Assembly: GCA_046563655.1 (NCBI GenBank)
Contig: CM102284.1
Location: forward strand, 434,001-498,000
Length of the DNA stretch: 64,000 bases
From: Yuukianura sp. NJ FZ-2021
Taxonomy: Eukaryota
Direction: 5' to 3'
Shown here: piece after piece, positions 43,501-46,761 of the stretch
Numbering within the stretch: the first letter of the stretch is position 1
Layout: the number at the start of each line of letters is the position of its first letter
The notes under the pieces: model-generated
Seen by the model: only the letters and a program-made list of their open reading frames with translations
What the model was told of the DNA's origin: nothing
The model's database searches: none
Translations under genes and position numbers: made by a program

Positions 43501-44815
43501 GAAACCGATTCGAGAGAATCTTCTTGACGCAGGCGCTGAGACCGGATCGGCTACTCACAGTTTTGTACTCGTTAGTAGAAGATATTTTTGGGACAGAGTT
43601 CCATTCCAACTCGGAACTGAACTTAACACAAATCATTCAGAAGGAAATCAACTGCAATACGCCGATCCTCCTCTGCTCCGTTCCTGGATACGATCCATCG
43701 GCAAGAATTGAAACTCTGGCGGCTGCCAATGGGGTTCAATTGGCCTCAATTGCTATCGGATCGGCAGAAGGATTTGCCCAAGCGGACTCTTCTATCAAAA
43801 TGGGAACGAAAAATGGACGGTAGGTCTAAAAATTGTCCTAAAAAAGTTAACTTATGCTTGATTAATCGTCAATTACTGTTTGCTGTTTGTAGATGGGTTC
43901 TCCTCAAAAACGTTCACTTGGCACCATCTTGGCTGCTTCAGTTAGAGAAAAAGTTGCATTCACTCACACCTCATCCAAACTTTCGTCTCTTTCTAACAAT
44001 GGACATCAATCCCAAGATTCCAATCAATCTGCTTCGTTCTGGACGGATCTTCGTCTACGAATCTCCGCCTGGAATCAAGTACAATCTTCTTCGCGTCTTC
44101 AACACATTGAGTCCACAGCGCATGGGCAAACTGCCCGTGGAGAGAAGCAAACTCTACTTCCTCTTGGCCTGGTTCCACGCAATTGTGCAAGAGAGACTTC
44201 GTTATGTCCCATTAGGGTGGTCTAAAACTTATGACTTCAATGAATCTGACTTGCTCGTGGCATATGACACGATTGACTCTTGGGTGGATGCTGCTGCGGC
44301 CAATAGAACCAATCTTCCTCCAGATAAGATTCCATGGGAAGCACTCAACACTTTGTTGGCGGATATCATTTATGGCGGGAAGTTAGACCAAGATGGAGAT
44401 TCTGAACTGCTGAGATCGCTGTTGAGCAAACTGTTCCAGCCCAAGTGCTTTGACTCGGACTTTTACTTGATCTTTAACAATGAAAATTCGCTGCTCGTTC
44501 CGGAAGCGATCAAGTATGGAGACTACATTGACTGGATCAACAAACTGAACCATACGCAACAAACGCCTTCGTGGCTCGGACTTCCGAACTCAGCTGAAAA
44601 AGTTTTGCTTACTCAACGAGGTGAGAAAATTGAAAAGCAATAGTTAACTAATTAAGGTTTTTAATTAATGAAACTAATTAAGTTTTTTAATTATCAATTA
44701 ACTTTAGCTGAAATTACTAATACATTGTATTTTTGTTATTTTAGGTACGGAGTTGGTCAAAAAGTTGCTGGAGATGGAAGAAATGCAAGAAGAGGAATAC
44801 GACGCTGGATTTTGA
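28561..44815 (+). CDS. DYNC1H1: Cytoplasmic dynein-1 heavy chain (about 31 exons, roughly 4,300 aa by hand), ending just after AAA6
   Basis: Tail motif [14 protein letters not shown]-loops [24 protein letters not shown] and [18 protein letters not shown]; stalk/[17 protein letters not shown]6 [11 protein letters not shown]; last exon 44745-44815 encodes [23 protein letters not shown]. Confidence 0.97.
35304..35382 (-). pseudogene. tRNA-like element (tRNA pseudogene or tRNA-derived SINE head) in a dynein intron
   Basis: On the minus strand: D-arm GCTC-AAATGTTA-GAGC, stem CTTCC/GGAAG with an oversized loop, T-arm GTGGG-TTCGAAT-CCCAC, imperfect acceptor stem, then T7. Confidence 0.65.
39741..39941. 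mobile_element. Short foldback-like MITE related to the NXF1-intron element
   Basis: Ends GGAAGAAGGCCATT... and ...AATGGCATGGAACC resemble the two asymmetric ends of 20214-20887; internal TCGAA repeats; TSD not clean. Confidence 0.55.
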
Positions 44816-45092
44816 AAAAGACGTTCGGAATTTCAGCAAAAACTGAAGAAAACTAGCTTTGTAAATAGTTGTGAGACTAAATGTTATGTTGTTGCTAAGC
44901 AACAGTGGCTTAAACATTATTTTAGGTTATGCTTATAATTTATTGCTTTACAAGGGTATGGTTACCTGGTACTGGTGAATTGGAATCTTGGTAAATTAAA
45001 AACTGTATTGAGATTGAGATATTCCCGTCATGACCCCAGGTCAATGACCTTGAAATTTAGTGATCTTGACCTACAGTCAGTGACCTTTGACC

Positions 45093-46761
45093 TTATTCTT
45101 GCATGTCAGCTGATACCATGTTCCTTCCAGTGTAAAACAGAGAAACAAGAGCTCCGAGTTGCAACTTTTCGTTGGTTCCAAGGGAAAGGCGACACTCGAG
45201 TTCGGCCATGCCTTTGAGGAGATGAATCCTCACTTCAGCGGGGAAGTCAATTCGCTCAATGAACTTGTGCACTTCGGTGACAATGTCCAGAAGGGCCAAG
45301 CCCTTAGAAGTCTTGAGGGCATAGATGTTGTTGAAGGCAGTCGTAATGTCATCAGATAGCATCCAATTTGTAATTTGTTCGACGTCACAAGGCATGGGAG
45401 CTCCAGTGCAGAGGTAGATGTGGTTCTCATTAATAGTTACTTCGTCATTGCGAGAGTCAGGATCTGAAGTGATACTGAAAGCCATGGCAGTGCTCTGCAG
45501 AATGTTCAGAACACGACGCATATCTCCGTCTCCCAATTTGAGCAGAACTTTTTTCGCTTCATCGCTTACACTCAACCTATAAAAAGTTTAAACAACTTTG
45601 AGTTTAGGAAATAGAGTAATTAGTAATTGAATTACAAAGTAATTTGTAATTGAAATACAAAGTAATTAGTAATTGAATTACTTTTCCTGTTCGATGACAT
45701 GTTGCAGGCGAGGAAGAATTTGATGTGGATTGAGCGGTCCAAATCGAAACCGTGTGCACCGACTTTGAATTGCTGGTGTGATTTTGCTCAAGTAGTTACA
45801 GATGATACAAAACCGGACGTTTTTGGCATACTTTTCAATCACTAGGTGAAACCAATTGAAAATTAGAATCAAAAACTGGAAGATATGAAAGTTAAATTGG
45901 TTTACCTCGTCTGAGAGCATTTTGAGCGTCATTGGTCATGGCATCTGCTTCATCCAGGATAATCAGTTTGTGTTTTGACTTGAAAAGAGTCTTGGTAGAA
46001 GCAAAAGTCAGAATTTGACCTCGTACTATTCCAATCCCACGGTCATCGGAGGCGTTCAACTCCAGAACCATTGAGTTGAATTCATTCTTGGCGTACATTT
46101 GCCTAGCAACTGCAAGAATTGTGCTAGTCTTCCCAGTACCTGCAATACAGAAACAAAAAACGTTGACAAAAGATCAATGAGCGAATATAGTAGGTAGTTT
46201 GAAGGTGAGTTTTCATCGGATCGACACCCAGATTTAATCGCCTTATCAAATTGGACTAGAAATGTAAGAGGAAAGTTGGAACGAGTAACTAGGATTCTAA
46301 AAAAAAGTGAAGCGCTGGAATTCTGTGGGCTGCTATTCTTGAAGAAGAGAATCGTGAAGGAATCAGTGATGTTACTGGAAATGTCAATGATTGTCTCACC
46401 CGGTGGTCCATAAAACAAGAGATGTGGCAGTTGGTTCTTCGCAATGAACTTCCGAACTGGAAACAACAATTTAGCATCTCAGACGTAAAGCAGATGTAAA
46501 CATTACATCAAATGTACATTTACGCACTTGTAGTAATAATGTCCGTATGAGAAATCAATTCATCAAGGGTAGCCGGTCTGTACTTCTCCACCCTGAAAAT
46601 ATTTACTCAACATTAGCCAAAAATGAACAATGTCTGCCAGTGGTTTGCATAAATCAAAATTTTTGGATTTTTCGCTTGATTGCATTTTTACATTTATACA
46701 ATTCAATACAATTGAGTTCAATTTACCAAGGAAGATTCAGTACATAGGGCTTTGATGACAT
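45093..46761 (-). CDS. RFC5: Replication factor C subunit 5 (36 kDa; yeast Rfc3-like)
   Basis: [50 protein letters not shown]-terminal [12 protein letters not shown] is typical of RFC5. Confidence 0.92.

What the first reader, a model, noticed from the sequence alone, without database searches (positions are those of the whole stretch)
44745..45093. Animal cytoplasmic dynein-1 heavy chain apparently lacking the C-terminal cap
Seen: after [16 protein letters not shown] the final exon encodes only [23 protein letters not shown] and TGA (44813-44815). It has no consensus donor, and the convergent RFC5 stop lies under 300 bp downstream; no further dynein-like exon is visible in the window. All four P-loops, the stalk and the tail are intact, so this does not look like a decayed gene. 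Established: animal DYNC1H1 continues about 290 residues beyond this acidic stretch (CT-cap), yeast Dyn1 lacks it, and removing the cap from mammalian motor constructs was reported to raise force and processivity. Inference: an arthropod that naturally evolved a yeast-like capless dynein, or a specialised paralogue. The frame stays open for about 40 codons past the TGA (...VVAKQQWLKHYF...), which could be a remnant or readthrough (weak).
Basis: partly seen in the sequence, partly recalled or inferred. Interest (0 to 1): 0.85.

Follow-up and report, generated by a model that had tools for sequence, protein, structure and literature searches.

The report
Conserved capless dynein-1 in springtail-like arthropods
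An otherwise complete animal cytoplasmic dynein-1 motor gene really does end just before the usual 290-residue C-terminal cap, two related species share that ending, and so nature has made the truncation that engineers found makes mammalian dynein stronger.

Summary
The + strand dynein-1 heavy chain gene (about 28987-44815) has every usual domain except Dynein_C. It ends [26 protein letters not shown] (stop 44813-15), 277 bp from the convergent RFC5 stop.

No cap is detectable:
- A profile of 81 caps finds nothing in the 64 kb window (best E 1.3) or in a relative's contig. It finds control caps at E 1e-47 to 1e-63.

It is not an assembly error or a decayed gene:
- Independent contigs bridge the dynein end to RFC5.
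- Two relatives from metagenome contigs, L001 (93% identical) and L002 (86%), stop at the same place with other stop codons (TAG, TAA). Both keep a terminal Phe.
- L001 keeps the RFC5 synteny.
- L002 lacks both local introns and carries AATAAA near its end, like an mRNA.
- Window against L001: pN 0.04-0.13 against saturated pS. Nothing is conserved after the stop, so read-through is rejected.

The end maps to about human residue 4358-4359 of 4646. Helix H1 is kept and cap and hinge are gone, as in yeast Dyn1 and rat MD-deltaCT.

RFC5 points to a springtail. The motor sits inside arthropod DHC1 on a very long stem.

Unresolved, because no genome is held: whether this is the only DHC1 or a divergent paralogue.

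The parts
28987..44815 (+). Cytoplasmic dynein-1-type heavy chain gene, mapped part. About 28 exons with short introns. The 5' end, roughly the first 120 residues, was not mapped.
   Evidence: 26 in-frame segments align with residues 120-4302 of full-length P0127. Pfam domains run from DHC_N1 to AAA_lid_11. Best PDB match is human DYNC1H1 at 320 bits, against 139 for dynein-2 and at most 118 for axonemal dyneins.
35463..39700 (+). AAA1-AAA4 with their Walker A P-loops: AAA1 GPAGTGKT from 35463, AAA2 GSSGTGKT from 37059, AAA3 GPPG|SGKT split by an intron (38333 and 38458 onward), AAA4 GMAGSGKT from 39644.
   Evidence: Motif scan of the three + frames and of ORF translations.
43893..44620 (+). 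Penultimate exon: the end of AAA6 and the complete AAA lid, ending ...[16 protein letters not shown] plus the first base of a Gly codon. The preceding intron is 43820-43892.
   Evidence: Sequence. AAA_lid_11 positions 2-140 of 140, E 3.6e-38. Residues 1-239 of the 240-aa query 43900-44619 align with human 4095-4334.
44621..44744 (+). Last intron, 124 nt, phase 1, GTGAG...TTTTAG. Its position is shared with L001 and, by read-through pattern, with 10 canonical DHC1 loci from metagenomes.
44745..44815 (+). Final coding exon. It encodes helix H1, a short acidic run and ...YDAGF, then the TGA stop at 44813-44815.
   Evidence: Against L001: 8 identical, 10 synonymous and 4 non-synonymous of 22 codons. 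Contig X1 record 3 covers 44503-44867 and differs from the window only outside this exon, at 44553 and 44634.
44816..45092 (.). 277-bp interval holding the tail-to-tail 3' UTRs. ATTAAA lies on + at 44995 for dynein. AATAAA lies on - at 44944 for RFC5. The 40-codon open frame 44816-44938 is not conserved.
   Evidence: No Pfam family on 44816-44938.
45093..46478 (-). Convergent replication factor C subunit 5-like gene. Stop at 45093-95; last exon about 45093-45587. The same dynein-RFC5 arrangement is present in L001.
   Evidence: Rep_fac_C E 4.4e-23. Named hits are RFC5 of Allacma fusca at 69% and Orchesella cincta at 62%. L001 sequence.

Best explanation
This is a real, selectively maintained cytoplasmic dynein-1-type heavy chain. 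In a lineage of springtail-like arthropods it ends about 23 residues after the AAA6 lid. It keeps helix H1 and a short acidic tail that ends in Phe. It lacks the hinge and the whole ~287-residue C-terminal cap (Pfam Dynein_C).

Shown:
- the gene structure and the stop codon;
- the absence of any cap-coding sequence nearby;
- conservation of the ending and of RFC5 synteny in relatives;
- purifying selection up to the stop.

Inferred:
- The protein works as a normal dimeric minus-end motor whose ring face is uncovered, as in S. cerevisiae Dyn1 and the engineered rat MD-deltaCT. The expected consequences are higher stall force and longer runs than capped animal dynein.
- The burst of substitutions on the stem of this clade reflects readjustment of the motor after, or together with, cap loss.
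- I take it as most likely the lineage's main, perhaps only, DHC1. That last step is the weakest.

My confidence that the capless gene is real and functional is about 0.9. The figure in the confidence field is for the whole statement, including 'main or only DHC1'.
For: 1. Anatomy. The final exon and the TGA are as described. There is no usable donor. All domains except Dynein_C are present and so are four P-loops.

2. No cap. The cap profile built from 81 sequences gave a best E of 1.3 in the window and 8.7 in L001, with no hit in L002. Controls scored 2.6e-63 (L004) and 1.4e-47 (L022), among 4157 six-frame ORFs.

3. Not an assembly error. X4 contig record 20 (1174 nt) runs from 44596 across the stop into RFC5, as far as 45851. 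X1 record 3 covers 44503-44867 with one substitution (44553) and one inserted base (44634), both outside the last exon. X5, from another study, covers 44747-44978.

4. Relatives. Of 184 related metagenome stretches, 80 were kept. L001 is 93% identical and L002 is 86% identical over the 240-aa lid.
- L001 has the same last intron. Its final exon reads [23 protein letters not shown] and then TAG. About 250 bp on lies a convergent RFC5.
- L002 reads ...RGADMIKKLSKMKEMQEDDDYESAF and then TAA.

5. Transcript-like evidence. L002 is continuous across both intron positions of the window, 43820-43892 and 44621-44744. It has AATAAA 154 nt after the stop and 17 nt before the contig end.

6. Selection. 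Between window and L001, pN is 0.04-0.13 and pS is 0.70-0.92 in 6 of 6 segments, 1074 codons. The last exon has 10 synonymous and 4 non-synonymous changes in 22 codons. In the sequenced sample, 7 of the 8 listed differences at 42436-42475 fall on third codon positions (my frame count).

7. Position of the end. L002 Tyr211 aligns with human residue 4355, so the proteins end at about human 4358-4359 of 4646. [quoted passage not shown] Naturally capless representatives end 24-47 residues after the WLGLP motif. The window ends 39 after it.

8. Family. The motor lies inside the arthropod DHC1 clade, SH-aLRT 98.

9. Prior against a paralogue. [quoted passage not shown] In that survey the only animal with extra copies was Schmidtea (PMC5100056, passages read).

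10. The one capped dynein contig of unclear origin in the same metagenome as L001 is L022. Its GC3 is 0.32-0.41 in 4 of 4 pieces. L001's is 0.52-0.63 in 7 of 7 exons, RFC5 included. L022 therefore looks like another organism.
Against: - No genome is held. A second, capped DHC1 in the same organism cannot be excluded.
- The clade sits on a very long stem: 1.15 changes per column, where the other internal branches are mostly 0.03-0.2 and end branches up to about 0.5. Identity to Lingula is about 3-19 points lower than in most canonical arthropods from about reference residue 100 on (10 of 11 100-residue windows); P0116 is lower than the window in 2 of them.
- The neighbouring RFC5 is barely accelerated: 53% to urchin, against 56% for two named springtails. 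Gene-specific acceleration together with domain loss is what a released paralogue often shows.
- Among 240 database hits in the length ranges I could search, only 2 (P0305, P0310) are closer to the window than to canonical dyneins. I therefore saw no sign that other springtails share this form. Full-length proteins over 2000 aa could not be searched.
- No RNA run was available for the window itself. That L002 comes from a transcript is inferred from its sequence alone, and it carries a frame-shifting T-run.
- Motor properties are inferred from yeast and rat constructs, not measured. Truncation in Dictyostelium was reported to lower processivity (cited in PMC4339881).
Confidence: 0.55

Rival explanations
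1. Specialised paralogue. The organism keeps a canonical capped DHC1 elsewhere. This gene is a duplicate that lost the cap, evolved quickly for a time and now serves a narrower role, for example germline or high-load transport.
For: - Very long stem branch, 1.15 changes per column, followed by slow evolution within the clade, with end branches of 0.04-0.08.
- Identity to Lingula is lower than in most canonical arthropods over most of the motor's last third.
- The neighbouring RFC5 is not comparably accelerated.
- No intermediate relatives among 240 database hits.
- DHC1 extra copies do exist in at least one animal, Schmidtea (PMC5100056).
Against: - DHC1 duplication is rare (PMC5100056).
- The gene keeps the intron-rich structure and a widely shared intron position, so it is not a retrocopy.
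- It shows the very strong constraint typical of an essential motor.
- It keeps its synteny across species whose synonymous sites are saturated.
- The capped contig of unclear origin in L001's metagenome has a different codon usage.
- None of these points excludes a paralogue.
Confidence: 0.3
2. Split gene. The cap is still made, from a separate gene or distant exons outside the window, and joins the motor non-covalently or by trans-splicing. Some Basidiomycota make dynein from split DHC1 genes.
For: - Split DHC1 genes exist in Basidiomycota (PMC5100056).
- Only 19 kb downstream of the stop, and 64 kb in all, could be searched.
Against: - No cap signal in the window or in L001.
- The stop and the terminal Phe are conserved, and the ending is transcript-like with a poly(A) signal in L002.
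- No donor lies near the stop.
- The hinge that links H1 to the cap is missing too.
Confidence: 0.07
3. Artefact or dead gene. The ending comes from a local misassembly, a sequencing error that created the TGA, or a recently truncated pseudogene.
For: - The sequenced sample is highly polymorphic and its public contigs are fragmented.
- Some contigs carry unlike sequence next to 45075-45094 (loose ends in X2, X4 and X5).
Against: - Contigs from two studies cover the stop, and one bridges into RFC5.
- Two diverged relatives end at the same place with TAG and TAA.
- pN is far below pS in 6 of 6 segments and in the last exon.
- All motor motifs are intact.
Confidence: 0.03
4. Stop-codon read-through or recoding of the TGA extends the protein into the 40 open codons downstream.
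For: The frame 44816-44938 is open for 40 codons.
Against: - The relatives use TAG and TAA.
- Their downstream frames stop after 10 codons and after 1 codon.
- blastn finds no significant similarity after the stop, best E 0.045 over 14 nt.
- No Pfam family matches the 40 residues.
Confidence: 0.01

Closest known systems
Animal cytoplasmic dynein 1 heavy chain (DYNC1H1 / Dhc64C class, DHC1)
   Same: Same domain order from DHC_N1 to AAA_lid_11, four P-loops, stalk and H1 helix. Best PDB match is human DYNC1H1 at 320 bits. It groups inside arthropod DHC1 and shares an old intron position at the lid end.
   Different: It lacks the hinge and the ~287-residue C-terminal cap (Dynein_C) that all the canonical animal sequences I examined carry when complete. 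It is about 3-19 identity points further from Lingula than most canonical arthropods over most of the region, and sits on a very long stem.
Naturally short fungal dyneins, e.g. S. cerevisiae Dyn1
   Same: They end shortly after the AAA6 lid with H1 kept. Capless representatives end 24-47 residues after WLGLP and the window ends 39 after it. Yeast 'naturally lacks the CT-cap' (PMC4339881), and the literature speaks of 'naturally shorter fungal dyneins' (PMC3469822).
   Different: Not related by descent. The window's motor is 61-65% identical to named animal DHC1s and only 40-44% to the capless representatives. It sits inside arthropods. The loss is therefore convergent.
Engineered rat MD-deltaCT (a.a. 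1157-4348), Nicholas et al. 2015, PMC4339881
   Same: The truncation point is almost the same. The natural end maps about 8-9 residues beyond the engineered one, and H1 is kept in both.
   Different: The rat construct is an artificial GST-dimerised motor fragment with an otherwise unchanged mammalian ring. Here the whole heavy chain, tail included, is kept, and the ring has had time to co-evolve. The construct's force (1 to 6 pN) and run-length gains are measured. For this protein they are only predicted.
Split DHC1 genes of some Basidiomycota (e.g. Ustilago maydis), Kollmar 2016, PMC5100056
   Same: A DHC1 gene that ends before the canonical C-terminus.
   Different: In those fungi the remainder of the motor is encoded by a second gene, and the split lies within the motor. 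Here no second part was found, and the cut lies at the domain boundary before the cap.

Membership tests
Cytoplasmic dynein 1 heavy chain (DHC1) | Domain order: tail (DHC_N1, DHC_N2), six AAA modules, stalk/MTBD, AAA6 lid | tested here: met
   Pfam on exon translations finds DHC_N1, DHC_N2, AAA_6, AAA_5, Dynein_AAA_lid, AAA_7, DYN_lid, AAA_8, MT, AAA_9, Dynein_heavy and AAA_lid_11. 26 collinear segments align with a full-length dynein.
Cytoplasmic dynein 1 heavy chain (DHC1) | Walker A P-loops in AAA1-AAA4 | tested here: met
   [24 protein letters not shown] (split by an intron) and GMAGSGKT.
Cytoplasmic dynein 1 heavy chain (DHC1) | Closer to DHC1 than to dynein-2 or axonemal heavy chains | tested here: met
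   PDB search of the lid region: human DYNC1H1 320 bits, Dictyostelium cytoplasmic dynein 283, DYNC2H1 139, axonemal at most 118. Named database hits are DHC1.
Cytoplasmic dynein 1 heavy chain (DHC1) | C-terminal domain (Pfam Dynein_C, PF18199), the 'CT-cap' present in animal and Dictyostelium DHC1 | tested here: not met
   No Dynein_C on the ORFs after the stop. tblastn of 6 caps gave nothing beyond the lid end in the parts of the output I saw. The cap profile gave a best E of 1.3 in the window, against 1e-47 to 1e-63 in controls.
Cytoplasmic dynein 1 heavy chain (DHC1) | Descent within the animal (arthropod) DHC1 clade | tested here: met
   IQ-TREE with LG+C20 PMSF, 21 rows by 1025 columns, cap removed. 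The window and L001 lie inside a 14-row arthropod clade, SH-aLRT 98, short search with no bootstrap. FastTree had placed them at the base of animals, which is probably long-branch attraction.
Cytoplasmic dynein 1 heavy chain (DHC1) | Being the single-copy orthologue of its genome | not testable with these tools
   No genome is held. Proteins over 2000 aa were outside the searchable lengths.
Naturally capless dyneins (fungal type, e.g. yeast Dyn1) | Protein ends shortly after the AAA6 lid with helix H1 retained | tested here: met
   It ends 39 residues after WLGLP, against 24-47 in capless representatives. H1 aligns with human 4337-4350 and the end maps to about 4358-4359.
Naturally capless dyneins (fungal type, e.g. 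yeast Dyn1) | Common descent with the fungal short dyneins | tested here: not met
   40-44% identity to the capless representatives, against 61-65% to named animal DHC1s. Arthropod placement.
Naturally capless dyneins (fungal type, e.g. yeast Dyn1) | High stall force and long runs without the cap | not testable with these tools
   Known for yeast and rat MD-deltaCT only (PMC4339881). This needs single-molecule assays.

The most novel reading that the evidence does not exclude
A whole lineage of springtail-like arthropods runs all cytoplasmic dynein-1 functions, including mitosis and neuronal and organelle transport, on a heavy chain that has lost the C-terminal cap. This would be the first known animal counterpart of yeast Dyn1 and of the engineered MD-deltaCT. 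The burst of substitutions across the ring would record how an animal motor and its regulators re-tuned force and processivity without the cap.
Probability: 0.5. Interest if true: 0.8.

Novelty: new variant of a known kind. Interest (0 to 1): 0.7.

Why it matters
The C-terminal cap is the element held responsible for the large difference in force and run length between yeast and mammalian dynein (PMC4339881). How it acts, and whether animals need it, are open questions.

A natural animal heavy chain that has lived without the cap for a long time offers two things:
- a ready-made comparison partner for structure and single-molecule work;
- a set of co-varying substitutions in the ring that may point to the surfaces through which the cap acts.

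If it is the only DHC1 of these animals, the cap is dispensable for animal cell biology. If it is a paralogue, it is a rare case of an animal making a second dynein-1 motor that is probably high-force.

In the library I searched, no paper holds 'dynein heavy chain' together with Collembola or springtail. Of the 6 papers that mention 'CT-cap' with dynein, the 4 listed do not look from their titles and abstract openings to be about a capless animal dynein.

Tried and rejected
- Whole-genome search for Dynein_C: no genome is held.
- Sequencing runs: 5 DNA holders were listed and no RNA holder. Expression of the window's own gene could not be examined.
- Reaching full-length proteins over 2000 aa:
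  - 'longer' searched only 421-2000 aa.
  - I then aligned window exons to a 2878-aa dynein, meaning to search with the alignment. MAFFT misplaced 9 of 17 fragments (20-32% identity where BLAST gives about 35-60%), so the alignment A1 was dropped and never searched.
- The 'near' search used the last protein search. It added only P0305 (93%) and P0310 (86%, the L002 product).
- Earlier notes of this scan: nothing by place, by sequence or by words.
- FastTree put the clade at the base of animals. I set this aside as long-branch attraction, because the site-heterogeneous model placed it inside arthropods.
- My first dN/dS run used wrong coordinates for the last exon of L001 and for L002, giving nonsense rows. 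These were corrected. Synonymous sites are saturated, so no omega value is quoted.
- Same-metagenome contigs L022 and L023 as possible capped paralogues of L001:
  - L023 is insect-like, 90% identical to Bactrocera.
  - L022 has a different GC3.
  - This check is weak, because only 80 of 184 related stretches were kept.
- Loose ends at 45075-45094 in X2, X4 and X5 show other haplotypes or relatives with a different intergenic sequence. Only 30 letters are shown, so they could not be followed.
- Origin of the ending. I considered that it arose by reading into a former intron. Some arthropod fragments (P0007, P0095, P0090) break off right after the conserved Tyr of ...ELAY, four residues before this protein's end. 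This stays a speculation.
- Structure and complex prediction were not run. They would not have addressed the open question.
- Supplements of the two key papers were not seen. The supplementary figures of Kollmar 2016 may list arthropod DHC1 copy numbers that bear on the paralogue question.
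Full report
**What is there.**

On the + strand a dynein heavy chain gene runs from at least 28987 to 44815. Its penultimate exon (43893-44620) ends ...[16 protein letters not shown] plus the first base of a Gly codon. A 124-nt GT...AG intron follows (44621-44744). 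The last exon (44745-44815) reads [23 protein letters not shown] and stops at TGA 44813-15.

The only GT dinucleotides in that exon lie in its first 21 bases, and none looks like a donor. A convergent RFC5-like gene stops at 45093-95, 277 bp away. The two genes' poly(A) signals, ATTAAA at 44995 on + and AATAAA at 44944 on -, imply overlapping tail-to-tail 3' UTRs.

**The gene is otherwise complete.**

- Twenty-six collinear in-frame segments align with residues 120-4302 of a 4613-aa dynein.
- Pfam finds every expected domain from DHC_N1 to a full AAA_lid_11.
- The four Walker A loops are intact. AAA3 is interrupted by an intron.
- The lid region matches human DYNC1H1 at 320 bits, dynein-2 at 139 and axonemal chains at 118 or less. 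It is therefore of the dynein-1 class.
- I did not map the first ~120 residues.

**The cap is absent.**

- The ORFs after the stop have no family.
- tblastn with the last 330 residues of six capped animal dyneins matched only their first 13-21 residues, at the lid end. That output was cut, and what I saw had nothing else below E 0.5.
- A profile built from 81 cap sequences scored the cap exons of two control loci at 2.6e-63 (L004) and 1.4e-47 (L022). It gave nothing better than E 1.3 anywhere in the window's six frames, 8.7 in L001 and no hit in L002.
- This search covers 19 kb downstream of the stop.

**It is not an artefact.**

No whole genome is held. Only DNA contigs of five coded runs were on offer, from two studies. 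Laid on 42000-48000:
- a 1174-nt contig of X4 runs from 44596 through the last exon and the intergenic stretch into RFC5, as far as 45851;
- a contig of X1 covers 44503-44867 and differs only at 44553 and by one inserted base at 44634, so it has the same last exon and TGA;
- a contig of X5, from the other study, covers 44747-44978.

The sample is very polymorphic. Some contigs carry unlike sequence next to 45075-45094, and I could not follow these.

**Relatives.**

A scan of metagenome contigs gave 184 related stretches, of which 80 were kept. Two are close: L001, 93% identical over the 240-aa lid on a 17.9-kb contig, and L002, 86% identical on a 1022-nt contig.

- L001 has the same last intron. 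Its final exon reads [23 protein letters not shown] and then TAG. About 250 bp further on is a convergent RFC5.
- L002 reads straight through ...LLTTRGADMIKKLSKMKEMQEDDDYESAF and then TAA.

Three lineages therefore end at the same place, within one residue of length, with three different stop codons and a conserved ...Y-(D/E)-x-(A/G)-F end.

L002 is continuous across both intron positions that it covers. It has AATAAA 154 nt after the stop and 17 nt before the contig's end. It reads like a spliced, polyadenylated message, although a species without these introns is an alternative. L002 also has a frame-shifting run of T, probably an error.

**Selection.**

- Between window and L001, synonymous sites are saturated (pS 0.70-0.92). 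pN is 0.04-0.13 in 6 of 6 segments, 1074 codons.
- In the 22 codons of the last exon, 8 are identical, 10 differ synonymously and 4 differ non-synonymously.
- After the stop nothing is conserved. The best blastn match has E 0.045 over 14 nt, and the relatives' frames close after 10 codons and after 1 codon. The 40 open codons after the window's TGA are therefore chance.

**Where the protein ends.**

Residue 239 of the lid query aligns with human 4334, and Tyr211 of L002 with human 4355. These proteins therefore end at about human 4358-4359 of 4646, and about 287 residues are missing.

Nicholas et al. (PMC4339881; abstract and passages read) cut rat dynein at 4348 of 4644. They kept helix H1 'as in yeast' and removed hinge and cap. 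Force rose from 1 to about 6 pN and runs lengthened greatly. The natural end here lies about 8-9 residues beyond that cut.

Capless representatives in the 50% library end 24-47 residues after the WLGLP motif. One is a 4112-aa protein whose ending and length resemble yeast Dyn1 (my reading; the library carries no names) and one is a 4321-aa protein. The window ends 39 residues after the motif.

**Whose gene is it.**

- The last RFC5 exon is closest to Allacma fusca (69%) and Orchesella cincta (62%), both springtails. The next named hit, a sea urchin, is at 53%.
- In an all-against-all table the window behaves like a third deep springtail lineage.
- With a site-heterogeneous model, the window and L001 fall inside a 14-row arthropod DHC1 clade. 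Support is SH-aLRT 98, from a short search with no bootstrap. FastTree had put them at the base of animals, which I take for long-branch attraction.
- The phase-1 intron at the lid end is shared with L001 and, by read-through pattern, with 10 canonical loci. The gene is therefore not a retrocopy.

**What remains odd.**

- The clade's stem is 1.15 changes per column, where the other internal branches are mostly 0.03-0.2 and end branches up to about 0.5. Its two end branches are only 0.04-0.08. That is a burst of change followed by strong constraint.
- From about reference residue 100 on, identity to Lingula is about 3-19 points below that of most canonical arthropods (10 of 11 100-residue windows). 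One unnamed row, P0116, is lower than the window in 2 of them.
- RFC5 is hardly accelerated: 53% to urchin, against 56% for the two named springtails.
- Of 240 database hits in the lengths I could search, only 2 are nearer to the window than to canonical dyneins.

**Sole orthologue or paralogue.**

This could not be settled. Full-length proteins were beyond the length filter, and my attempts to reach them failed or were dropped.

For a sole orthologue:
- DHC1 is 'rarely lost or duplicated'. Schmidtea was the only animal with extra copies in Kollmar's survey (PMC5100056, passages read).
- The gene is very strongly constrained and its synteny is conserved.
- The one capped contig of unclear origin in L001's metagenome (L022) has GC3 of 0.32-0.41, against 0.52-0.63 in L001.

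For a paralogue:
- The acceleration is specific to this gene.
- It comes together with domain loss.

I put the sole or main motor at about 0.55, a paralogue at 0.3, a split gene at 0.07, an artefact at 0.03 and read-through at 0.01.

**Mechanism.**

Shown: a complete dynein-1 heavy chain whose C-terminus is H1 plus a short acidic tail.

Inferred from yeast Dyn1 and rat MD-deltaCT:
- The AAA1/AAA2 face of the ring is left uncovered.
- Nucleotide exchange and microtubule-bound dwell change.
- Stall force and run length rise.
- The stem burst would be the ring, and perhaps its regulators, re-tuning to this.

The conserved terminal Phe suggests that the new C-terminus itself has a contact. I have no test for that.

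**Novelty.**

Capless dyneins are known in fungi (PMC4339881; PMC3469822, passage read). I found no report of one in an animal:
- 0 papers hold 'dynein heavy chain' with 'Collembola' or with 'springtail'.
- Of the 6 papers holding 'CT-cap' and 'dynein', the 4 listed do not look from their titles and abstract openings to be about a capless animal dynein.

This is a new variant of a known kind.

Noticed in passing
window 38333-38470: The AAA3 Walker A loop is interrupted by an intron: the exon ends ...LVLCGPPG and the next begins SGKTMTLL... A strict motif scan therefore misses it.
   Followed up: yes
window 50487-52513, - strand: Long ORFs (546 and 146 aa) with Integrase_H2C2 (E 4e-17) and RT_RNaseH domains. 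This is a fragment of an LTR-type retrotransposon.
   Followed up: partly
window 55860-56600, - strand: A 247-aa ORF with a DPBB_1 domain (double-psi beta-barrel of expansin / lytic transglycosylase type), E 7e-7, just above Pfam's cut-off. This is unusual for an animal and worth a check for horizontal origin.
   Followed up: no
window 4331-5482, + strand: A 383-aa single-exon ORF with a BTB/POZ domain, E 3e-16.
   Followed up: no
window 8000-12000: A G+C-rich island (0.47 against about 0.38-0.40 around it) with long overlapping ORFs on both strands. One is 8888-10051 on the - strand, 387 aa, with no Pfam family.
   Followed up: no
window 47871-49035, + strand: Ribosomal protein L8 (uL2) gene in three exons. 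Pfam Ribosomal_L2_N matches the first exon.
   Followed up: partly
window 43868 (inside intron 43820-43892): Contigs of all four runs laid (X1, X2, X4, X5) carry 8 extra bases behind 43868 relative to the window. This is an intronic indel or a small assembly difference.
   Followed up: no
window 45609-45666 (RFC5 intron) and 45034-45075 (intergenic): Alternative haplotypes in the sequenced sample. An intron stretch of 53-56 bp is replaced by 18-21 other letters, and several small deletions (21 bases in all) lie in the dynein-RFC5 spacer.
   Followed up: no
L002 185-201: A run of 12 T shifts the reading frame inside the lid-coding region of this otherwise open, intron-free contig. It is probably a homopolymer error.
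   Followed up: partly
proteins P0007, P0095, P0090: Several arthropod dynein fragments in the database break off right after ...DDELAY with an added R. This suggests an intron just after that Tyr in canonical genes, four residues before the point where the capless proteins end.
   Followed up: no
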